From NCBI GenBank assembly GCA_039000375.1, contig JAWBTS010000005.1, positions 1,149 to 25,148 on the forward strand: a stretch of 24,000 nucleotides of DNA. Direction: 5' to 3'. Numbering within the stretch: position 1 is the first letter of the stretch; each line of letters begins with the position of its first letter. Of this stretch, positions 1 to 16,844 are shown piece by piece. Position numbers and translations under genes: made by a program. Under the pieces are notes generated by a model. It saw nothing but the letters and a program-made list of their open reading frames with translations. It was not told the origin of the DNA and searched no databases. Source of the DNA: Candidatus Aenigmatarchaeota archaeon. GTDB lineage: Archaea > Aenigmatarchaeota > Aenigmatarchaeia > GW2011-AR5 > JAHLMP01.

Positions 1-2061
1 AAATATAATGCATCTTCAGAAAACTATCGCGAAGAGATATTAAATGTTGTTATAGGACAAGATACTACACCTCCTTCAGCCATTATCTATGGAATAAATG
101 ATACAAATCTCACAAGAGGAGAGTCATTAAAGATCTATGCTCAATGGAATGAAGAGATAAGCGAAGCAAAGGTATTTTATAACAAAACAAGCTTGTTGAT
201 TAATGAAACTATTCCAGGACCTTATACAAACAATTGGACAAACTATACATTAACTACAGGAAACGATTGGTGGCTTGGAATTCATGGAGTAAGAATTGTT
301 GCTAATGATACAAGTGGTAATATAAACAATACGTTACCTTTCCTAACATTTGAGCTCTGGGGAAGAAGCGTTGTGGAGTGGTATTCCCCTACTGGGAGCG
401 TTGGAAGAGGTATTATAACTTTAAGATGTTTAGTAAAAGATAAAGATACTAATGATGCTATAGAGAATTATCTTGTATTATTCTATAATTCTACACATTA
501 TCTAGGAACAAATTACACAAATGCTAGTGGAATAGCAAGCTTTACTGTAAATACATCTAATTATACTCTTGGAGCTCATAACTTCTATTGCGTAATAGGT
601 AATGATGGATCAAAGTATTACATAGCAAATGTAACACAAGCTAGTGCATCATTATTATTATATGAAACTAGAGTAATAAGAATAAGGGCTTTGAAAGAGA
701 GTAATGAAATAGATAATGATGTTAATATAAAAGTTTGGAAAAACGGAGAGATTATAAACTCTACACAAGGAAATATGGATATAGAGCTAACACTCCAAGA
801 TAAATATAATATTACATTTGAAAAGAATTGCACAAACTTAACTTATGTTATAATAAGAGATTTCAACGCTACTGGACATAATCTTTCTTCTCAAATAGTT
901 TGTAACTACACTGGCTATAAGCCAAGTGGTATAGAAATAGCTACTCCAATATTTGCACTAAATGCTACCGAACTAATATTTAAAAATGCGACACTATCCT
1001 TGCCTTTAATAAAAGCTCCTAATTATGTGTTGCATTGCACAAACTGGAGCTTTGAGACAATGAACTGTAGCAATTGGAGTATAATAAATAAAAATGAATT
1101 CGTTGATTATTACGAAAATGCTACTCATATGAGATTTACTGTTACTTCCTTCCAAGCTTATGGAGGAGGCTCTGAGCTTCCAGATTTGATTGTAAATAGC
1201 ATAACCTTCAATGCTACGAATGCAAAAGAGAATGAAGAGCTGCAAGTTAGAGTAAATGTTAGCAATGAAGGCTCTGGAAGTGTTACTAACGCTAACTTAA
1301 CACTTAAAATATCTTTGTGGAACGGTAGCTCTTGGATTAATGAAACCTCTCAATCCCAACTTGTAAATCTAAGTGTTAATGAAGCTAAGATTATAAACTT
1401 CACTTGGATTGCAAAGCCAGGAACATGGAGGTTTAACGCTACAATAGATCCTAATAATGAGATAGAAGAAACAAATGAAAGCAATAATGAAAAGCTTGAG
1501 AATTATACTGTAAGCGGTTGGCATATATTCTATGGAAAGGTAAACTCAACAATCGTTTTGACTAGTAGCGAGGGAATAAACTTTACTAGATGGATTCCTT
1601 CAATAATAAATGGCACTTTATATTTTGCGGATTATGACTCTTCTTTCTCATTCTCAAATCTTAAAGCATTGAATGGAACAAACGATTTAAATGAAGCTGA
1701 TATCGCTCTTCATATGAATGGCTTCAACGATTCTATAAAAAGACTTTTTGATGCAAACAATGATAATCAACCTGATGCAACAGCATGCTTTATAGTAAAT
1801 GCTCAGCAACTATGCAACGTTCCTATAATAAACTCTACCGATAACAACTATGGAAACTTTGTTACTGGTATTTTGTGGGATAGTGGCGATGGTGGCTCTG
1901 AATACAATGGTACGCAAGACTTAATATTTATAACAAAAATAAATCAAAACAAGCAAGGTAGTTATGGAGTTTATGATTATGAGATTAGAGTACCAGCATA
2001 TCTAAGAGAATTGAAAGGAGAAAATAATCTTGTTTCTATTTATATTGAAATTATAGATTAA
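1..2061 (+). CDS. Secreted surface glycoprotein, 5'-truncated by the window edge, with a CARDB-like domain
   Basis: Frame 1 is open from base 1, so the tracked TTG start at 193 is probably internal. I count 41 N-x-S/T sequons in the 622 tracked residues. Residues about 330-440 (nt about 1180-1512) read PDLIVNSITF...VRVNVSNEGSG...ATIDPNNEIEETNESNN, a CARDB-type pattern. TAA stop. Confidence 0.8.
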   Translation, partial: KYNASSENYREEILNVVIGQDTTPPSAIIYGINDTNLTRGESLKIYAQWNEEISEAKVFYNKTSLLINETIPGPYTNNWTNYTLTTGNDWWLGIHGVRIVANDTSGNINNTLPFLTFELWGRSVVEWYSPTGSVGRGIITLRCLVKDKDTNDAIENYLVLFYNSTHYLGTNYTNASGIASFTVNTSNYTLGAHNFYCVIGNDGSKYYIANVTQASASLLLYETRVIRIRALKESNEIDNDVNIKVWKNGEIINSTQGNMDIELTLQDKYNITFEKNCTNLTYVIIRDFNATGHNLSSQIVCNYTGYKPSGIEIATPIFALNATELIFKNATLSLPLIKAPNYVLHCTNWSFETMNCSNWSIINKNEFVDYYENATHMRFTVTSFQAYGGGSELPDLIVNSITFNATNAKENEELQVRVNVSNEGSGSVTNANLTLKISLWNGSSWINETSQSQLVNLSVNEAKIINFTWIAKPGTWRFNATIDPNNEIEETNESNNEKLENYTVSGWHIFYGKVNSTIVLTSSEGINFTRWIPSIINGTLYFADYDSSFSFSNLKALNGTNDLNEADIALHMNGFNDSIKRLFDANNDNQPDATACFIVNAQQLCNVPIINSTDNNYGNFVTGILWDSGDGGSEYNGTQDLIFITKINQNKQGSYGVYDYEIRVPAYLRELKGENNLVSIYIEIID

Positions 2062-2933: not shown

Positions 2934-3788
2934 ATGACAAGCTATTCAAAGTTTTGCTATAAGCACTTTGGAAGTCTAATAAAGCCTTTGAGAAAGTACT
3001 TCCTAGATGTTAAAACAGATCTTAAAATAGCTCACTTAGCATTTACCTTAGATGAGTATCTTTCAATGGCATTCTTTACAACTCTTATAACTTTTATGCT
3101 TGAGACAATAATCCTTTCATTTATTTTTGGATTATTTTTCGATGTCTTTGTTTCAGTTTCTCTCGCAACAACGCTATCCTTTGGAATAAGTGGTATAGTT
3201 TTCTTTTTCTTTTATTCATATCCTAGAGTTTTAAGCAAGAAGAAGGAAGATGAGATAGATAAGAAACTACCTTTCGCAACATCTTATATGGCAGCCCTTT
3301 CAGCAGGAAAGGCATTACCATTATTTATATTTAGCACTATTGCAAGGTTTAAAGAGTTTGGAGAGGTTGCAAAAACTGCGAGTAATATTAGTAGAAATAT
3401 AACATTCTTTGGAATGAATTCTGTCGAAGCTATGAGAAAGGAAGCTTCTGAAACACCATCAAAAAATTTTCGCGAACTTCTTTGGGGAATGGCGACCTCT
3501 GTTGCAAGCGGCACTGATTTAGCGATATTTCTTAGAGAAAAGGCAGATTTGCTCATGAGCGAATATAGAAGAAAGATTGTTCGCTTTTCTCAAGAGCTTT
3601 CAATGTATATAGAAATATATTTAACGCTTGTTATAGCCGGCTCTATAATGTTTACTGTTTTAACTGCTGTAATGGCAGGCGCTGGATTAGATGTAATAAT
3701 TATTCAATTCTTTATAATATTTATTTTACTTCCTTTTACTTCGATTGCTTTTATTTTATTGGTTAAGATGAGATCCCCAACAGGATAA
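2934..3788 (+). CDS. Type IV pilus/archaellum platform protein, half-size (T2SSF domain; FlaJ/TadB/EpdJ-like)
   Basis: Polytopic membrane protein. A cytoplasmic segment LPFATSYMAALSAGKALP...GMNSVEAMRKEASETPSKNFRELLWGMATSVASGTDLAIFL matches the T2SSF/FlaJ domain pattern. Confidence 0.75.
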   Translation: MTSYSKFCYKHFGSLIKPLRKYFLDVKTDLKIAHLAFTLDEYLSMAFFTTLITFMLETIILSFIFGLFFDVFVSVSLATTLSFGISGIVFFFFYSYPRVLSKKKEDEIDKKLPFATSYMAALSAGKALPLFIFSTIARFKEFGEVAKTASNISRNITFFGMNSVEAMRKEASETPSKNFRELLWGMATSVASGTDLAIFLREKADLLMSEYRRKIVRFSQELSMYIEIYLTLVIAGSIMFTVLTAVMAGAGLDVIIIQFFIIFILLPFTSIAFILLVKMRSPTG

Positions 3789-3806
3789 TTATCAAGTGAA
3801 ATTAAA

Positions 3807-4757
3807 ATGAAAGGAAAAAAATTGGAGTTGAATGAAAAAAGCATATTGCTTATATCTTCGATTCTATTCTTCATAATTCTAATCTTGGCAAGCTTTACCT
3901 ATCAAAACATAGCTTTGTTTGTTAACTTAATAATCATTGGAGTAATGGTAATAATACTTCCTTATTCAATATTTAAATTTATCAAGTTTCAGAACTTGAG
4001 AAACTGCGAGATGAATTTTCCTAATTTTCTAAGAGATATCGCTGCAGCAAAGAGAAGTGGGTTAACATTGATACAAGCTATAAAGACTTGTGCTGCTTCT
4101 GATTATGGAGCGCTAACACCACATGTTGTTAGATTAAATAATCAGCTTTCCTGGAACATTCCACTAAAAGATGCTTTAGAGAATTTTAGAAATAGGTTGA
4201 AAGATAGCCAAATAATTTCGCAATCAATCTTAGCTATTTCTCAGATAGAAGAATCAGGAGGAAAATCTGAAGATATACTTGACTCCTTAGCAGATAATGT
4301 AGAAGGAATAAAAGAAGCTGAGCTTGAGAAAAGCGCTTTAATGAGCCAGCATATAATGGCAGTCTATGCAATATTCTTCATATTCTTAGGAATTTCTATA
4401 GCTTTGATAGCTTTTTTGCTAAAGTTTCCGCAAATACCTGGAACAGAAGAATTGCCAGGCATACCATTTGGCCAAAATCCTTGTAAGATTTGTATAAACT
4501 CTATGTCTGATGCTTGTTCTCCATGCCATTTTTATTTTATTATTTGCGAAGCTTTTAAATTTGGAAAGAAGGAGAGTGCAAGATGTTATTACAATTCTAT
4601 ATTTTTACTTATGATTATTATAGAAGGAGTATTTTCAGGATTAATAGCTGGACAGATTGGCTCTAACTCTATAGCTGCAGGTTTAAAGCATTCGTTAATA
4701 ATGGGTATTTCAGGATTTTTAATATTTATTATAGCAGCTCAGATAGGCATAATTTAA
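3807..4757 (+). CDS. Second half-size platform protein (T2SSF domain; FlaJ/TadC/EpdK-like) with a Cys-rich insertion
   Basis: NFPNFLRDIAAAKRSGLTLIQAIK...WNIPLKDALENFRNRLKDSQIISQSILAISQIEESGGKSEDILDSLA is T2SSF-like and is flanked by TM segments. The start is preceded by AGTGA (SD-like). Confidence 0.75.
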   Translation: MKGKKLELNEKSILLISSILFFIILILASFTYQNIALFVNLIIIGVMVIILPYSIFKFIKFQNLRNCEMNFPNFLRDIAAAKRSGLTLIQAIKTCAASDYGALTPHVVRLNNQLSWNIPLKDALENFRNRLKDSQIISQSILAISQIEESGGKSEDILDSLADNVEGIKEAELEKSALMSQHIMAVYAIFFIFLGISIALIAFLLKFPQIPGTEELPGIPFGQNPCKICINSMSDACSPCHFYFIICEAFKFGKKESARCYYNSIFLLMIIIEGVFSGLIAGQIGSNSIAAGLKHSLIMGISGFLIFIIAAQIGII

Positions 4758-9105: not shown

Positions 9106-9210
9106 TGGGCCCGGAAGGATTTGAACCCTCGACCTGCTGGTCCGAAGCATCGGCACGATTTAAAATTTCTCAAGCGTTCAGCCGCTCTATCCAAGCTGAG
9201 CTACGGGCCC
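9106..9210 (-). tRNA. tRNA-Arg(UCG) with a 30-nt non-canonical intron between positions 30 and 31
   Basis: Reverse complement: GGGCCCG UA GCUC AGCUUGGAUA GAGC G GCUG[intron]G CUUCGGA CCAGC AGGUC GAGGG UUCAAAU CCUUC CGGGCCC A. Removing 9149-9178 restores a 5-bp anticodon stem and a loop with U33 and G37. The mature RNA is 75 nt. Confidence 0.75.
9149..9178 (-). other. tRNA-Arg intron (BHB)
   Basis: A central 4-bp helix CGGC/GCCG is flanked by 3-nt bulges UG|A and AU|G. The outer helix is GAG/CUU and the inner helix is ACG/CGU. Confidence 0.65.
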
Positions 9211-11476: not shown

Positions 11477-12175
11477 TCAATATCTTAAAATCGATGTTAA
11501 CTCTTCTTTTTTATCTTCTCTCTCGCTACCTATCTTATTTTTAAAACATTCAATGGAATCTCTTCCCTGAATTTCAATAACATATAATTTATTTTTCTTA
11601 TCTTTATTTGCTATGCAATAAACCCTTGCTTTTATGCTTTCTATGTCAAGCATTCTTTGAATTAGCTTCAATAAATTAAAAGAATAGCTGCTTGCTCTTA
11701 TTCTAATCTTTCTCTTCTTTCTATTTTCCTTTTTGTCATAATAATAAACAACATTAAAAAAGCCTTTTGCATCAAAAAACCCGCGAAGAAACATTATTCT
11801 AAGATTAGAATATTCATCTAAGATTGTTATATTTTCTAATGCTATACTTTCTTTTATCTCTTCTAAGTTTTGAATCCATGCTCTTATATCTTGAAAAATT
11901 TTCAAATAATTTTCTGAAAGATTTGCAAAAACTAAATAATAGATTTTATCCTTTCTTCTCTTTTCCTTTATCCTAACATTATTGGAAATTTTTTCCAGTT
12001 TATTTTTTACGATTTTTGCTAAATCTTCATCTGAGGTTTCTAAGGTTAGCCTTCCATCTTTTATGTTGCCTCTATTACAAAATACGCCAAGTATATAAAA
12101 TAAATCTTCTCTATTCTCAAGTATTTTTTTCTCTTGCTTTTTATTATGTTCAAAAGTATCTTCATTCATCTTCAT
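11477..12175 (-). CDS. Free-standing LAGLIDADG homing-endonuclease-like protein with two motifs, the first degenerate
   Basis: The second motif IMFLRGFFDAKGFF is a close LAGLIDADG match. The first, LFYILGVFCNRGNI, keeps the helix pattern but has N/R where the acidic residue is expected. About 230 aa fits a monomeric double-motif enzyme. Confidence 0.55.
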   Translation of the reverse strand: MKMNEDTFEHNKKQEKKILENREDLFYILGVFCNRGNIKDGRLTLETSDEDLAKIVKNKLEKISNNVRIKEKRRKDKIYYLVFANLSENYLKIFQDIRAWIQNLEEIKESIALENITILDEYSNLRIMFLRGFFDAKGFFNVVYYYDKKENRKKRKIRIRASSYSFNLLKLIQRMLDIESIKARVYCIANKDKKNKLYVIEIQGRDSIECFKNKIGSEREDKKEELTSILRY

Positions 12176-12246: not shown

Positions 12247-12392
12247 CTAGAAATAAAATGAAATTTTTTATGAAATTTTTTATTTATAGATTCGTTCTAT
12301 GCAACGATTTGTAAAAGATAAAAATTTAAAATTTCGAAAGCTATAGTTAAGTTAAAGCGGGGATGGCAGAGCGGCAATGCGACCGCCTGCAG

Positions 12393-12453
12393 TTTTAAGA
12401 AATTTGCTATAGATTTTGGAAAAGCTAAAATAAAGCTAATGAGCAAAGCAGAA
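12393..12453 (+). other. tRNA-Cys intron 1, canonical 37/38 (BHB)
   Basis: The central helix CUGC (12387-12390) pairs with GCAG (12448-12451). The bulges are AG|U and AA|A. The anticodon stem ACCGC/GCGGU serves as the outer helix. Confidence 0.75.
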
Positions 12454-12474
12454 AGCGGTTCAGCTGGGTTCGAC

Positions 12475-12488
12475 ATTTATAACGAAAA
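12475..12488 (+). other. tRNA-Cys intron 2, T-loop 59/60 (BHB)
   Basis: The T-stem CUGGG/CCCAG is the outer helix and the central helix is UUCG (12469-12472)/CGAA (12483-12486). The bulges are AC|A and AA|U, and the inner helix is UU/AA with a 3-nt loop. Confidence 0.7.
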
Positions 12489-12764
12489 TCCCAGTCCCCG
12501 CTTTATGCTTTTCTCTAATTTTTAACCTTCGTTTTTCTCCAATTTTAAAAATTTTTAATTAAAATTTTTGCCAAAATTTCAATAAAATTCGATGCTTTTA
12601 GCATTTTGTTGCTAAATTTATTAAAAAATTTAAAATTTGAATTAAAAATTAATAAAAATAAAAAATATTTATTTGTAAACTTTTAAACGAAAAATTTTTA
12701 TTTTTTAAAAATTAAAACAAAAATAAATAATGTTATATATTTAAGGATTGAAATTGTTTCACGA

Positions 12765-12865: not shown

Positions 12866-15250
12866 ATGCAAAGGTTAGGTAAAATCCTAACCGCTGGTGC
12901 CTTAGGAGCAATGTTGCTAGGAGCAACAGTAGCTTTGCCAGCAACACTTGCAGATTATCCTTCACCATTCGTAGAGGACGGAAAAGTGAATACTCTTGTC
13001 GTTGTAGGAGCTAATGCTGCTACAGCTGACGTAGTAGGAGCAATAGATCTCGCAGCAAGATTGGCTGGCGAGGTCGGTCTTGAGGGTACTTGCCCTGCTT
13101 GTCCAGGTGTAGCAGGTGCTATTACAGTAACAGGAGGAGTGCAAATTACGCATGATTTGAATAAACTTTACTTAGGCGAAGAGTTTGATACAGTAAAGTC
13201 ATTAATCACAGGAAATGACCTTCCGGACTTGCTTGGAACAAAGACATTTACAGACAAGGAAGGAAATGTAGTAACATACTATGAGCAAATAATACTAGGA
13301 AATCACTATGTAACTTATGGAAGACCAACAGATTTTGATAAGCCAGAGCTTTATGTAGAGTTTCCAACTGCAGAAAAATACAAACTAAAAGCTATATTCG
13401 TAGGAGGTTTAGATACATCAAAGGTCGATTCGAGTTATTCAATAAAGCTATTTGGTAAAGAATATACATTTGGCTCTGGCACAGATCTAAGCGCCGATAC
13501 TATAGAGCTCTACTCCTCAACAGGCGCTACTTCTGTAGCGTTGACAGGAGTAGGAGATACAGAAACTGTAACAGTAGGTGGTAAGACTCTAACATTTGAA
13601 GTAAAGGGATGGGATCCACAAAACACTAATAAAGCTTACCTATATGTAAATGGTAAGGCAACATCTCCTTACGGATGGGTTGAAGGAAGCACTTACACAG
13701 TAGAAGGAGTAAAGGTTTATGTAAATGATGTTTCAGTAATAAGAACAGGAGCTCAGGAAGAAACAGTTTCTGTGCTCTTGTTCGTAGGTACAGACAAACT
13801 AGTACTTAAGGATGGACAAGCAGTAGAAAAGAATGATGAAGCTCTAAGTGGAACAAGTGTAACAATTCACAAATCAGGAACTAAGCTAAACTCCTTAGAG
13901 ATTGAAGTAGTTCCTGATACAACAAAATACTTGAAAGATGGCTCTACTTTTGTAGACCCTGTTTTCGGAAGCTTTAGATTCAGTTTGAACGGAATGACAC
14001 CAAGCTTAACAAGCGATTCTCGCGATTTAGTCAAGATAGAAGAGAGTGGAACAAGAAAGGTAAAGCTAACATTCACAAACAAGGAAGGAACAGCATATTC
14101 ATTTGATGCATTTTACTTAGATACTAACAACAATTGTAAGCTTTCACACGATGGAACTAAAAATATATATGTAGTTGAAAATAACATGGACTTGAAAGTA
14201 GGAGAATACGTAGTTCTAACAGCAGGAGATGCAACATACATTTATAGATTATCAGCATTGACAACAACAGGAAATAATCCTTATGCAACATTCGTTGACA
14301 TAGCAACAGGAAGCTCTCAGAAAGTATATTACAATAGCGATCCTTATATATACATAGGAGAGAACAAGTTTAAGGTACAGTATGATAACAATAAGTTACA
14401 AGTATCTTTGAACGGAGATGAAGACTTTACAGATACAGATGCAGTACCTCTATACACGAAGACAGGAGGAATAATAGATATAAGCCACTGTGATGATGCG
14501 AATAATGCAGATTTCATAACATTCTCAGAGTCAAAGCTTTACAGCTTAGGAAATGATCCTGCTGACGGTGCATTAAAGATAACAGTAGCTTATGCATCAA
14601 ATGATGTGAACTTTAATATTGCGTATGAAGAAGGAGATGATCAAAACTTTGATGAGACCTTGCTAGGAGGCCAAGTAGGAACAAGTGATGTATACAACTA
14701 CTTAACGAAGTATGGAACATTTGTCACGCATGATACAAATGCTGACAAGATAAACATTTACTACCCAGGCAACAGGCCAGCTTACGCTTTGGTTGCTGTG
14801 GGTAGCAACCCAGTATGGTCGACAACAGAAGCTGTAGGACCAACACCTGCAGTTTCTTACAAGACAGCAGTTCCTGTAACAACAGCTCTTGCAAAGCTTG
14901 ATAGTGAAGTAACTCAAGCAGATAGAAATGAAAAGCACCTCATACTTGTCGGAGGTCCTTGTGCAAACGCTTTGGTAGCAGAGCTTGCTGCTGCAGGCAA
15001 GTTCAATTACGAAGGAGCACCTCTAACATGCGATGCATGGAATGCAAGAACATATGCAGGCGATGTGTTTGGATTAATACAACTCGTTGACAATGCCTTT
15101 GCTACTGGTAAAGTAGCATTGGTAGTAGCAGGTTCAAGAGCAGAACAAACAAGATGGGCAACATCAATATTGCAGAAGTATGATGTATACAACTTACGAG
15201 GCACAGCGGTTAAGGTACCAAGTCTAAACACAATTGAGGTAATATCGTAA
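12866..15250 (+). CDS. S-layer protein (Methanococcales/Thermococcales-type)
   Basis: Signal peptide MQRLGKILTAGALGAMLLGATVALPATLA, then DYPSPFVEDGKVNTLVVVGANAATADVVGAIDLAARLAGE. The C-terminal HLILVGGPCANALVAELAAAG matches the conserved S-layer N- and C-terminal boxes as I recall them. Composition is A/G/T/V-rich and clearly more GC-rich than the neighbours. Confidence 0.85.
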   Translation: MQRLGKILTAGALGAMLLGATVALPATLADYPSPFVEDGKVNTLVVVGANAATADVVGAIDLAARLAGEVGLEGTCPACPGVAGAITVTGGVQITHDLNKLYLGEEFDTVKSLITGNDLPDLLGTKTFTDKEGNVVTYYEQIILGNHYVTYGRPTDFDKPELYVEFPTAEKYKLKAIFVGGLDTSKVDSSYSIKLFGKEYTFGSGTDLSADTIELYSSTGATSVALTGVGDTETVTVGGKTLTFEVKGWDPQNTNKAYLYVNGKATSPYGWVEGSTYTVEGVKVYVNDVSVIRTGAQEETVSVLLFVGTDKLVLKDGQAVEKNDEALSGTSVTIHKSGTKLNSLEIEVVPDTTKYLKDGSTFVDPVFGSFRFSLNGMTPSLTSDSRDLVKIEESGTRKVKLTFTNKEGTAYSFDAFYLDTNNNCKLSHDGTKNIYVVENNMDLKVGEYVVLTAGDATYIYRLSALTTTGNNPYATFVDIATGSSQKVYYNSDPYIYIGENKFKVQYDNNKLQVSLNGDEDFTDTDAVPLYTKTGGIIDISHCDDANNADFITFSESKLYSLGNDPADGALKITVAYASNDVNFNIAYEEGDDQNFDETLLGGQVGTSDVYNYLTKYGTFVTHDTNADKINIYYPGNRPAYALVAVGSNPVWSTTEAVGPTPAVSYKTAVPVTTALAKLDSEVTQADRNEKHLILVGGPCANALVAELAAAGKFNYEGAPLTCDAWNARTYAGDVFGLIQLVDNAFATGKVALVVAGSRAEQTRWATSILQKYDVYNLRGTAVKVPSLNTIEVIS

Positions 15251-15354: not shown

Positions 15355-15999
15355 CTAAGGTAATATCCTAACAACTTCATAATAAGTTACATCTCCTTCA
15401 TTATCTACTATTGCCCATAGCATTCTAGCTCTGATATTATGGGCAAGCCTCACAGCCCTTGAAAGCTCTTGGAAAGAGCACGTATAATCTTCAGGCACGC
15501 AAAAAACAACCCATTTTGTATGCTCTTTTTGCGATTTAGGGCCGCGCTTTAATTCTACACCTCTTTCATAGCATCTAAAGTCGCAGCCAAACTTAAATCC
15601 TGTTTTTACTAAAAGGCCTCGGTCTCTCAAATCTTCATAAACACGATATCTATGGGAAAATCTTTTATCTATGCTACAAGCTATTTTATATAATTCCATA
15701 AAGCTTAACGCTTTTTTAGATTTTTTTGAGATTTTTATTTTTTTGTCTTTTTCTTCTATCTTTTCTGCGAGAAATATCTCTATTCTTCCTTTTTTTAGGA
15801 GGTAAAGAGCTTCTACAAGCGAAAGCTCTATTCTATCATCTAAAATCTTTCCATAATAACCTGGCAAATAAATCTCTTCTTTTCTATCAAAGGCAATAAC
15901 CTTTTCACCAAGAAGATAGCATTTTGGAAGATCTTTATTTTTTTCATTTTTCTTTTCTTTTATTTTATTCTTTTCAAATTTATCGATATCCATGAGCAT
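15355..15999 (-). CDS. endA: tRNA-splicing endonuclease
   Basis: LSLVEALYLL, YRVYEDLRDRGLLVKTGFKFGCDFRCYERG, KEHTKWVV and AVRLAHNIRARMLWAIVDNEGDVTYY are colinear with the short archaeal EndA (M. jannaschii type). It carries a Lys-rich insertion EKIEEKDKKIKISKKSKK. Confidence 0.85.
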   Translation of the reverse strand: MLMDIDKFEKNKIKEKKNEKNKDLPKCYLLGEKVIAFDRKEEIYLPGYYGKILDDRIELSLVEALYLLKKGRIEIFLAEKIEEKDKKIKISKKSKKALSFMELYKIACSIDKRFSHRYRVYEDLRDRGLLVKTGFKFGCDFRCYERGVELKRGPKSQKEHTKWVVFCVPEDYTCSFQELSRAVRLAHNIRARMLWAIVDNEGDVTYYEVVRILP

Positions 16000-16657: not shown

Positions 16658-16844
16658 CGCCCTTGGCAGGATTTTTGCGATTTTCACATCGAAAATCTCT
16701 TTTAACTATTATTTTTTTATTCTTAATAATTTTACAATTTCTCCTCTTGCTTCAAATTCATTCCCAAAACATGATGTGAAAATCGCTTCGAACCTGCGAC
16801 CTTCTGGTTAACAGCCAGACGCTCTACCACTGAGCTACAAGGGC
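16658..16844 (-). tRNA. tRNA-Asn(GUU) with a 115-nt intron in the T-loop (59/60)
   Basis: GCCCUUG UA GCUC AGUGGUA GAGC G UCUGG CUGUUAA CCAGA AGGUC GCAGG UUCGAA[115 nt]U CCUGC CAAGGGC G. All stems are complementary and the mature RNA is 72 nt. Confidence 0.8.
16672..16786 (-). other. tRNA-Asn T-loop intron
   Basis: Closed by a 13-14 bp helix: 16677-16690 pairs with 16773-16786. The BHB register has a central helix UUCG/CAAA (one C.A mismatch) and bulges AA|G and AA|U. Confidence 0.7.

What the first reader, a model, noticed from the sequence alone, without database searches (positions are those of the whole stretch)
12357..12502. tRNA-Cys(GCA) carries two BHB introns: canonical 37/38 (61 nt) and T-loop 59/60 (14 nt)
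Both introns can be placed by hand with textbook helix-bulge-helix-bulge-helix geometry.

- Intron 1: the anticodon stem is the outer helix, CUGC/GCAG is the 4-bp central helix, and the 3-nt bulges are AG|U and AA|A.
- Intron 2: the T-stem is the outer helix, UUCG/CGAA is the central helix, the bulges are AC|A and AA|U, and the inner hairpin is tiny.
- Splicing yields a 71-nt tRNA with the GCA anticodon, a G13.A22 mismatch and the U73 discriminator that is the Cys identity element.

The second intron sits at exactly the same position (59/60) as the tRNA-Asn intron 4 kb away. That is consistent with position-specific intron gain or transposition.
Basis: seen in the sequence. Interest (0 to 1): 0.7.

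Follow-up and report, generated by a model that had tools for sequence, protein, structure and literature searches.

The report
Two-intron cysteine tRNA gene, archaeal
This is a real cysteine tRNA gene from a heat-loving Aenigmatarchaeota archaeon, interrupted by two short protein-spliced introns; it is a correct catch, but a further example of a gene layout already described in other archaea.

Summary
Removing 12393-12453 (61 nt, position 37/38) and 12475-12488 (14 nt, position 59/60) from 12357-12502 gives a 71-nt RNA that ARAGORN calls tRNA-Cys(GCA). The unspliced gene is invisible to ARAGORN and to the Rfam tRNA model.

Two sister species keep both introns at the same two positions with different lengths and sequences (11 nt, and 15 or 16 nt). 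They also carry a compensatory A7:U66 to G7:C66 change in the acceptor stem. An intronless relative has the predicted spliced T-loop, UUCGACU.

Intron 2 is a relaxed bulge-helix-loop motif, not a strict bulge-helix-bulge. For intron 1 the central helix and 3' bulge are predicted, but the strict 3-nt 5' bulge is not the favoured fold.

The window is a about 31% GC Aenigmatarchaeota (DPANN) contig. It encodes a tRNA-splicing endonuclease 3 kb away that carries the basic loop of the Nanoarchaeum enzyme.

T-loop 59/60 introns recur in this clade (Cys, Asn, Arg, Trp). The Cys and Asn introns show no sequence similarity, so transposition is unsupported here.

The closest precedent is the ARMAN-2 pre-tRNA-Cys(GCA), with a 13-nt intron at 59/60 that was cleaved in vitro. 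Verdict: a new member of a known kind.

The parts
12357..12392 (+). tRNA-Cys exon 1: tRNA positions 1-37, comprising the acceptor 5' strand GCGGGGA, the D-arm with G13.A22, the anticodon stem 5' strand and CUGCAG
   Evidence: It is identical in strains L002/L004. The D and anticodon arms are identical in L067 and L134.
12393..12453 (+). Intron 1, 61 nt, at canonical position 37/38. The central helix is CUGC 12387-12390 with GCAG 12448-12451. The 3' bulge is AAA 12452-12454 and the 5' site is AG|U 12391-12393. The candidate inner helix is either UUU 12394-12396 with AAA 12445-12447 (strict) or UUUGCU 12403-12408 with AGCAAA 12442-12447 (a 12-nt 5' bulge).
   Evidence: ARAGORN -i reports a 61-nt intron. 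The only strain difference in the gene, G to A at 12441, lies here. Sister species have 11 nt at the same site.
12454..12474 (+). tRNA-Cys exon 2: tRNA positions 38-59, comprising A38, the anticodon stem 3' strand GCGGU, the variable loop UCAG, the T-stem 5' strand CUGGG and UUCGAC
12475..12488 (+). Intron 2, 14 nt (AUUUAUAACGAAAA), in the T-loop at 59/60. The outer helix is the T-stem. The central helix is UUCG 12469-12472 with CGAA 12483-12486. The 3' bulge is AA|U 12487-12489. The 5' site AC|A 12473-12475 lies in a 10-nt loop. This is the relaxed hBH/BHL type.
   Evidence: The MFE of the whole pre-tRNA and of the isolated arm gives exactly this shape at 37 and 70 C. MAFFT places the gap of intronless homologues exactly here. 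Orthologues have 15- or 16-nt introns at the same site. The central helix pairs in 27 of 28 cells over 7 distinct clade introns.
12489..12502 (+). tRNA-Cys exon 3: U60, the T-stem 3' strand CCCAG, the acceptor 3' strand UCCCCGC and the discriminator U73. CCA is not encoded.
   Evidence: U66 changes to C66 in sister species together with A7 to G7.
15355..15999 (-). tRNA-splicing endonuclease (EndA, tRNA-intron lyase), the enzyme expected to cut both introns. It has one N-terminal and one catalytic domain. It carries a 6-residue basic insertion, LKRGPK, just before the catalytic His.
   Evidence: Pfam PF02778 and PF01974. It is 100% identical to P0001, annotated 'tRNA-intron lyase, Ca. Aenigmatarchaeota'. 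The best solved relatives are M. jannaschii 1a79 and the N. equitans alpha subunit 3iey. The loop is conserved in 120 of 120 homologues.
16658..16844 (-). tRNA-Asn(GUU) with a 115-nt intron (16672-16786) in the T-loop at 59/60. The intron has a 14-bp perfect inner helix, and the central helix UUCG/CAAA has one C.A mismatch.
   Evidence: Sister species have 11-nt introns at the same site.
9106..9210 (-). tRNA-Arg(UCG) with a 30-nt intron (9149-9178) at non-canonical position 30/31, central helix CGGC/GCCG. Its T-loop is uninterrupted.
   Evidence: Orthologues in L067 and L134 carry an extra 32-nt or 31-nt intron at 59/60.

Best explanation
12357-12502 is the functional tRNA-Cys(GCA) gene of a thermophilic Candidatus Aenigmatarchaeota (DPANN) archaeon, split into three exons by two protein-spliced archaeal introns.

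The proposed mechanism has four steps.
1. The gene is transcribed as a 146-nt precursor plus leader and trailer. This step is inferred.
2. The splicing endonuclease encoded 3 kb away recognises two motifs. At the anticodon loop, the anticodon stem stacks on the 4-bp helix CUGC/GCAG, and the cut sites are AG|U and AA|A. At the T-loop, the T-stem stacks on UUCG/CGAA, the 3' site lies in a 3-nt bulge (AA|U), and the 5' site (AC|A) lies in a loop. The second motif is a relaxed bulge-helix-loop.
3. An RtcB-type ligase joins the exons. This step is inferred, and the ligase gene is not in the window.
4. CCA is added.

The product is a 71-nt tRNA with the GCA anticodon, G37, U73 and the T-loop UUCGACU.

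What is shown: the gene structure, the motifs, their conservation, and the presence of the enzyme gene. What is inferred: cleavage, ligation and the order of intron removal.

The exon half of the T-loop central helix is the near-universal T-loop sequence UUCG. An inserted sequence therefore only needs to end in YGRR plus two nucleotides to become spliceable. My inference is that this is why 59/60 is used repeatedly.
For: Gene structure
- In-silico splicing gives tRNA-Cys(GCA). Removing one intron gives a Cys gene with a canonical 61-nt intron.
- Folding reproduces the T-arm bulge-helix-loop at 37 and 70 C. For the anticodon arm it reproduces the central helix and the 3' bulge.

Comparative evidence
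- L067/L136 come from the same assembly (GCA_964608845.1) as L008, whose EndA is 73% identical to the window's. L134 is a further species. Both keep introns at 37/38 (11 nt) and 59/60 (16 or 15 nt) with different sequences.
- Against these sister-species orthologues, the only exon differences are the compensatory pair A7:U66 to G7:C66.
- Strains differ only inside intron 1.
- The intronless homologue L137 has the T-loop UUCGACU, and MAFFT opens its gap exactly at 59/60.
- The spliced sequence fits the tRNA-Cys cloverleaf: 99.4% of cells are paired and 15 of 20 pairs covary.
- Gene order is conserved in three species: orf165, orf168, LAGLIDADG-like gene, tRNA-Cys, S-layer gene.

Enzyme
- EndA is present. 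It carries the basic loop equivalent to the N. equitans specific loop (residues 90-98; K93, K94, K96, R97; PMC3488258). This is the 'L3' loop that Kaneta et al. associate with disrupted tRNA genes in DPANN (PMC5829648). The loop is conserved in 120 of 120 homologues.

Precedent and clade context
- The ARMAN-2 pre-tRNA-Cys(GCA) has a 13-nt hBH intron at 59/60 that was cleaved in vitro (PMC3239211).
- Other 59/60 introns in the clade also splice in silico to valid tRNAs.
Against: - There are no expression or junction data.
- The whole-precursor MFE mis-pairs the D and anticodon region.
- The strict 3-nt 5' bulge of intron 1 needs a 3-bp all-A:U helix. It is 2.7 kcal/mol above the MFE at 37 C and 2.0 kcal/mol above it at 60 C.
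- The residue of this EndA that aligns with the catalytic Lys of characterised enzymes (M. jannaschii K156, A. fulgidus K287) is Ala in 120 of 120 homologues. Lys-to-Ala mutants of the ARMAN-2 and M. kandleri enzymes are inactive (PMC12397907, PMC5829648). The enzymology is therefore not simply transferable.
- I could not scan the rest of the genome for a second tRNA-Cys gene or a second endonuclease subunit.
Confidence: 0.88

Rival explanations
1. The gene is spliced, but the T-loop junction is one nucleotide off (58/59). That would give the T-loop UUCGAAU instead of UUCGACU. Alternatively, intron 1 is recognised through a large (12-nt) 5' bulge rather than the strict 3-nt bulge, with the same product.
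For: - UUCGAAU is also a valid T-loop, and it is the one predicted for the spliced tRNA-Asn (window and L007), L067 tRNA-Arg and L007 tRNA-Trp of this clade.
- For intron 1, the fold with the 12-nt bulge and the 6-bp helix UUUGCU/AGCAAA is within 0.5 kcal/mol of the MFE at 37 C and is the MFE at 60 C.
Against: - The rule of cutting two nucleotides after the central-helix strand places the canonical intron 1 correctly. Applied to intron 2, it gives 59/60.
- Intronless tRNA-Cys homologues L137, L020 and L130 have C59 (UUCGACU).
- A 58/59 cut would not be symmetric about the UUCG/CGAA helix.
Confidence: 0.06
2. The locus is a decaying tRNA-Cys pseudogene that has picked up two insertions. A different gene supplies tRNA-Cys.
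For: Standard finders (ARAGORN, Rfam tRNA) do not call it. The rest of the genome could not be checked.
Against: - Exons are invariant between strains, and a compensatory pair change separates species, while introns and flanks diverge freely.
- Both insertions keep splice-motif helices in three species.
- Synteny is conserved.
- The other interrupted tRNA genes nearby behave the same way.
Confidence: 0.04
3. Only the anticodon-loop intron is removed. The 14 extra nucleotides stay in the mature tRNA as an enlarged T-loop.
For: Intron 2 lacks an inner helix and is very short. No direct cleavage data exist for this enzyme.
Against: - A 21-nt T-loop would destroy the T-loop/D-loop core.
- The CGAA-NN-U arrangement is kept in three species and in four tRNA species.
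- An equivalent 13-nt intron in ARMAN-2 tRNA-Cys is cleaved in vitro (PMC3239211).
Confidence: 0.02

Closest known systems
ARMAN-2 (Ca. Micrarchaeum acidiphilum) pre-tRNA-Cys(GCA), with a 13-nt hBH/BHL intron at 59/60 (Fujishima et al. 2011, PMC3239211, Figs 1B and 4B)
   Same: Same isoacceptor, same insertion point (59/60), same relaxed motif type, almost the same length (13 versus 14 nt), and also a DPANN archaeon. Cleavage was shown in vitro.
   Different: - The ARMAN-2 gene is described with that single intron, whereas this gene also has a 61-nt canonical intron.
- The ARMAN-2 enzyme is the three-unit epsilon2 type with the ASL loop, whereas this one is a single two-domain alpha-type protein with the Nanoarchaeum-type loop.
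- I could not compare the intron sequences because the ARMAN-2 sequence is not in the held text.
Multiple-intron tRNA genes of Thermoproteales, and intron transposition there (Sugahara et al. 2008 and Fujishima et al. 2010, as summarised in PMC4033280 and PMC8450103)
   Same: One to three BHB or relaxed-BHB introns per tRNA gene, at canonical and non-canonical sites including the T-loop. Introns turn over rapidly between related species.
   Different: - Different phylum (TACK versus DPANN).
- Different endonuclease: (alpha-beta)2 with the Crenarchaea-specific loop.
- In Thermoproteales, similar intron sequences in different tRNAs support transposition. Here the Cys and Asn introns show no similarity.
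[quoted passage not shown] 2018, PMC5829648)
   Same: One canonical strict-type intron plus one relaxed non-canonical intron in the same precursor. That paper infers that the canonical intron is removed first.
   Different: The second intron is in the D-arm, not the T-loop. The M. kandleri enzyme lacks any specific loop and cuts the relaxed intron poorly.
N. equitans EndA specific loop (residues 90-98), the 'L3' loop of DPANN alpha-type EndAs (PMC3488258, PMC5829648)
   Same: The window EndA has an insertion of the same length at the same place, immediately before the catalytic His. It has basic residues at K151, R152, K155 and K158.
   Different: N. equitans EndA is an (alpha-beta)2 heterotetramer and keeps the catalytic Lys. 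The subunit composition of this enzyme is unknown, and it has Ala at that position. The role of L3 in specificity has not been demonstrated experimentally.

Membership tests
Archaeal endonuclease-dependent (BHB-type) tRNA introns | Removing the insert restores a canonical cloverleaf tRNA with the conserved core nucleotides | tested here: met
   ARAGORN calls the 71-nt product tRNA-Cys(GCA). The product fits the tRNA-Cys alignment at 99.4% paired cells.
Archaeal endonuclease-dependent (BHB-type) tRNA introns | A 4-bp central helix spans the two splice sites, with each cut two nucleotides 3' of a central-helix strand | tested here: met
   CUGC/GCAG and UUCG/CGAA are read directly and predicted by folding. 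The T-loop helix pairs in 27 of 28 cells across 7 clade introns.
Archaeal endonuclease-dependent (BHB-type) tRNA introns | Strict hBHBh' form: two 3-nt bulges, each closed by a helix on both sides | tested here: not met
   - Intron 2 has no inner helix. Its 5' site sits in a 10-nt loop, so it is the hBH/BHL relaxed form.
- For intron 1, the strict form is possible but lies 2.0-2.7 kcal/mol above the MFE.
- Relaxed forms are accepted members of the family (PMC5829648, PMC3239211).
Archaeal endonuclease-dependent (BHB-type) tRNA introns | The genome encodes a tRNA-splicing endonuclease able to cut relaxed motifs at non-canonical positions | tested here: inconclusive
   The EndA gene is present with Tyr and His and with an L3-type basic loop. 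The aligned catalytic Lys is Ala. The subunit composition and the activity are untested.
Archaeal endonuclease-dependent (BHB-type) tRNA introns | Precursor cleavage and exon ligation are observed | not testable with these tools
   No RNA data or assay is available.
Multiple-intron tRNA genes | Two or more separately excisable introns in one tRNA gene, each with its own splice motif | tested here: met
   The two motifs are independent, one in the anticodon arm and one in the T-arm. Both are conserved in L067 and L134.
Transposed or paralogous tRNA introns (Thermoproteales model) | Significant sequence similarity between introns of different tRNA genes | tested here: not met
   - Window Cys intron 1 versus the Asn intron scores 16.0 against a shuffle mean of 17.1.
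- No window Cys/Asn pair is among the best 15 of 105.
- The only suggestive case is in the sister species: the L007 Asn and Trp 59/60 introns share the 10-mer TTTTTGGAAT (p about 0.002, uncorrected for 105 pairs).

The most novel reading that the evidence does not exclude
Thermophilic Aenigmatarchaeota may be a second, DPANN-side hotspot of tRNA-intron proliferation comparable to Thermoproteales.

- Three of the four tRNA genes in this window are interrupted.
- A sister species has a three-intron tRNA-Trp.
- A 59/60 intron in tRNA-Arg is present in sister species and absent here.

All of this would be served by a single alpha-type endonuclease that has the Nanoarchaeum-type basic loop but has lost the canonical catalytic lysine (Ala in 120 of 120 homologues). 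If so, this enzyme family would be a functionally distinct endonuclease variant with broad specificity. The clade would also be a natural system in which BHB-intron gain and loss can be followed between closely related genomes.
Probability: 0.25. Interest if true: 0.6.

Novelty: new member of a known kind. Interest (0 to 1): 0.3.

Why it matters
- For annotation: this gene is the kind that default tRNA finders miss (ARAGORN and Rfam both fail). MAGs of this clade will therefore look as if they lack tRNA-Cys, tRNA-Asn and others unless intron-aware tools are used.
- For biology: it adds Aenigmatarchaeota to the lineages with multi-intron tRNAs. It shows that 59/60 is a recurrently used site across four tRNA species in the clade.
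- For enzymology: it provides natural substrates (a strict-like intron and a bulge-helix-loop intron in one precursor) and the cognate enzyme gene. Together they can test the still unproven idea that the DPANN 'L3' loop gives alpha-type endonucleases broad specificity.

None of this changes the current picture of archaeal tRNA splicing.

Tried and rejected
- Direct detection: ARAGORN in default mode and Rfam at gathering and E-value thresholds do not see the gene. The weak Rfam hits (Plasmodium RNase P, snoRNAs, miRNAs) are far below their thresholds and were disregarded.
- Orthologues by synteny with EndA: contigs of P0006 and P0007 have a different gene order and no tRNA-Cys.
- Exact-protein look-ups with the window's own ORF calls failed because of different start codons.
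Only L067 belonged to the clade. A narrower pattern on metagenomes gave three further useful loci.
- A guide RNA in intron 1: it has no D box (CUGA) and no convincing C box by eye, and no Rfam hit.
- A mobile element in the 115-nt Asn intron: its 14-bp terminal inverted repeat has no other copy in the window or in related loci, and there is no Rfam family.
- Cys versus Asn intron homology: none.
- The sigma-70 promoter and terminator scan is not informative for an archaeon.
- Supplementary files of the two key papers are not held.
- MAFFT misplaces the anticodon-loop gap of intronless sequences, so pair counts were made on spliced sequences instead.

Full report
**What is at the coordinates.**

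- ARAGORN finds nothing in the unspliced sequence.
- With both inserts removed, it calls a 71-nt tRNA-Cys(GCA).
- With only the 14-nt insert removed and its intron option on, it calls tRNA-Cys with a 61-nt anticodon-loop intron.
- Rfam's tRNA model misses the locus at both the gathering and the E-value threshold.
- The product has G13.A22, G18G19, a 4-nt variable loop, the T-loop UUCGACU and U73. CCA is not encoded.

**Where the window comes from.** The window is about 31% GC, while its tRNA genes are 56-69% GC. The ORF at 15355-15999 (-) is a tRNA-splicing endonuclease (Pfam PF02778 and PF01974). It is 100% identical to a protein annotated 'tRNA-intron lyase' from Candidatus Aenigmatarchaeota MAGs (GCA_039000285.1, GCA_044343565.1). 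Contigs of the closest other species (EndA 73% identical) encode a 1196-aa protein with the domain combination of reverse gyrase (DEAD/ResIII helicase plus Toprim/topoisomerase), so the clade is thermophilic. The source is therefore a thermophilic DPANN archaeon.

**Splice motifs.**

- *Intron 2.* Both the whole precursor and the isolated T-arm fold, at 37 and 70 C, into T-stem (5 bp) + UUCG/CGAA (4 bp) + a 3-nt 3' bulge + a 10-nt loop. There is no inner helix, so this is the relaxed hBH (bulge-helix-loop) form, not the strict hBHBh'.
- *Intron 1.* The isolated anticodon arm folds with the anticodon stem, CUGC/GCAG and the AAA bulge in place. The 5' site, however, is either paired (the MFE at 37 C) or lies in a 12-nt bulge closed by UUUGCU/AGCAAA. 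That second fold is +0.5 kcal/mol at 37 C and is the MFE at 60 C.
- The strict 3-nt 5' bulge for intron 1 needs a UUU/AAA helix and costs +2.7 kcal/mol at 37 C and +2.0 at 60 C.
- The cutting rule (two nucleotides after each central-helix strand) places the canonical intron at 37/38. Applied to the T-loop, it gives 59/60.

**Comparative evidence.**

- Strains L002 and L004 differ from the window at one base of the gene region, 12441 G to A, which lies inside intron 1.
- A pattern scan of species-representative genomes found the orthologue in the sister species: L067, from the same assembly as the 73% EndA locus L008.
- A narrower scan of metagenomes added L136 (identical to L067), L134 (a third species) and L137.
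- L067 and L134 have the same D-arm, anticodon arm and T-arm. They carry an 11-nt intron at 37/38 (UGUUUGAAGAA or UGCUUGAAGAA; the central helix has a G.A mismatch). They also carry a 16-nt or 15-nt intron at 59/60 (UUUUUAAAAACGAAAU or UUUUAAAAACGAAAU), which keeps UUCG/CGAA and the 3-nt bulge.
- Across the three exons, the only differences are A7 to G7 and U66 to C66. This is a compensatory change in a pair whose two halves are separated by both introns.
- L137 is an intronless tRNA-Cys with the same D-arm, and its T-loop is UUCGACU, exactly the predicted spliced loop. MAFFT opens the gap of intronless sequences precisely between C59 and U60.
- On nine spliced or intronless tRNA-Cys sequences, the cloverleaf is 99.4% paired and 15 of 20 pairs change on both sides. 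Slid controls give 35-54%.
- The gene order orf165, orf168, LAGLIDADG-like gene, tRNA-Cys, S-layer gene is conserved in all three species.

This pattern is that of a gene under purifying selection on its exons and on the splice helices only.

**The 59/60 site in this clade.** The window holds four tRNA genes.

- Phe is uninterrupted.
- Arg(UCG) has a 30-nt intron at 30/31 with a CGGC/GCCG central helix.
- Asn(GUU) has a 115-nt T-loop intron (16672-16786, minus strand).
- Cys is the gene under study.

A simple scanner for T-loop-interrupted genes, run over all held loci, followed by hand parsing, found further cases.

| Locus | tRNA | Introns |
|---|---|---|
| L007 | Asn | 11 nt at 59/60 |
| L012 | Asn | 11 nt at 59/60, plus a D-loop intron |
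| L067, L134 | Arg | 32 or 31 nt at 59/60, plus a 13-nt intron (12 nt in L134) at 30/31 |
| L007 | Trp(CCA) | three introns: about 26/27, 37/38 and 59/60 |

All the spliced forms checked (every case in the table except the L134 tRNA-Arg) are accepted by ARAGORN. Over seven distinct 59/60 introns, the central helix pairs in 27 of 28 cells. Variation on the intron side is absorbed by G.U wobble, and slid controls give 59% or less. I chose the columns of that alignment using the structural hypothesis, which favours it.

The window's tRNA-Arg has an intact T-loop (UUCAAAU), whereas its orthologues are interrupted. The site is therefore gained or lost between sister species.

Intron lengths also differ sharply between the window and the sister species: Cys 37/38, 61 versus 11 nt; Asn 59/60, 115 versus 11 nt; Arg 30/31, 30 versus 13 nt.

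**Shared ancestry of the Cys and Asn introns.** Sequence does not support it. Cys intron 1 versus the Asn intron scores below the shuffle mean. No window Cys/Asn pair ranks among the best 15 of 105 intron pairs. What the 59/60 introns share is the 3' end YGRR-NN, which pairing to the invariant T-loop UUCG forces on them. The only suggestive non-orthologous pair is in the sister species: the Asn and Trp 59/60 introns both begin with TTTTTGGAAT (p about 0.002, uncorrected for 105 comparisons).

**The enzyme.**

- The closest solved relatives of the window's EndA are the M. jannaschii homotetramer subunit (1a79, E = 1e-33, aligned over nearly its full length) and the N. equitans catalytic subunit (3iey).
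- Relative to M. jannaschii, it has a 6-residue insertion (LKRGPK) directly before the catalytic His. The insertion has the same length and position as the N. equitans specific loop (residues 90-98; K93, K94, K96, R97; PMC3488258). It is conserved in 120 of 120 homologues.
- Kaneta et al. call this loop L3. They report L3-bearing alpha4-type enzymes in several DPANN lineages, associated with more disrupted tRNA genes (PMC5829648).
- Whether this enzyme is alpha4 or has a partner subunit cannot be told from the window.
- Unexpectedly, the residue aligned with the catalytic Lys (M. jannaschii K156, A. fulgidus K287) is Ala191 in all 120 homologues, followed by Arg or Lys. Lys-to-Ala mutants of characterised enzymes are inactive (PMC12397907, PMC5829648).

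**Comparison with what is known.** Archaeal tRNA genes with one to three introns at non-canonical positions, including the T-loop, are well documented (PMC3239211, PMC4033280, PMC8450103). The closest precedent is nearly exact: the ARMAN-2 pre-tRNA-Cys(GCA) has a 13-nt hBH intron at 59/60 that its endonuclease cleaves in vitro (PMC3239211). I found no paper describing tRNA introns in Aenigmatarchaeota. That is an absence in the held library only.

**Verdict.** The gene is a new member of a known kind. Interest is modest. The clade-level pattern and the unusual endonuclease are the parts worth following up.

Noticed in passing
window 15355-15999 (-), residue 191 of the EndA protein: The residue aligned with the catalytic Lys of characterised splicing endonucleases (M. 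jannaschii K156, A. fulgidus K287, in the motif R-K-K/R) is Ala here and in all 120 closest homologues (motif R-A-R/K). Tyr and His are conserved. Lys-to-Ala mutants of the ARMAN-2 and M. kandleri enzymes are inactive according to the literature. Either another basic residue (R192, or the LKRGPK loop) substitutes, or a second catalytic subunit exists.
   Followed up: partly
window 16658-16844 (-); intron 16672-16786: The tRNA-Asn(GUU) T-loop intron is 115 nt long with a perfect 14-bp inner helix (GCGAUUUUCACAUC/GAUGUGAAAAUCGC). The orthologous intron is only 11 nt in two related species. Strains differ by indels and substitutions inside the intron only. No other copy of the inverted repeat was found, and there is no Rfam match.
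   Followed up: partly
window 9106-9210 (-); L067 (-) 3331-3450; L134 (-) 3862-3978: tRNA-Arg(UCG) has a 30-nt intron at non-canonical position 30/31 (9149-9178). Sister species have a 13-nt or 12-nt intron there plus an extra 31-nt or 32-nt hBHBh' intron at 59/60, which the window gene lacks. This is a presence/absence polymorphism of a T-loop intron.
   Followed up: partly
L007 755-892 (+): The sister species' tRNA-Trp(CCA) appears to carry three introns: 19 nt at about 26/27, 22 nt at 37/38 and 22 nt at 59/60. The spliced form is accepted by ARAGORN. Its 59/60 intron starts with the same 10-mer (TTTTTGGAAT) as that genome's tRNA-Asn intron.
   Followed up: partly
window 11477-12175 (-): A free-standing 232-aa ORF with a LAGLIDADG homing-endonuclease-like domain lies 180 bp upstream of tRNA-Cys. 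It is syntenic in three species but only about 26% identical between them, while the neighbouring orf165 is 77% identical. No link to the tRNA introns was found.
   Followed up: partly
window 12866-15250 (+) and 193-2061 (+): There is a 794-aa S-layer-like protein (PF05124) immediately downstream of tRNA-Cys and a 622-aa CARDB-domain protein at the window start. T2SS-F-like (archaeal pilus/archaellum membrane) genes lie at 2934-4757, and a ParA/MinD-like ATPase lies at 2082-2849.
   Followed up: no
L012 (-) 11722-11823: In a more distant relative (EndA 70% identical), tRNA-Asn(GUU) carries an approximately 18-nt D-loop intron in addition to an 11-nt 59/60 intron (AGCAGCGGAAA). The Asn 59/60 intron is therefore kept in three species with unrelated sequences.
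   Followed up: partly
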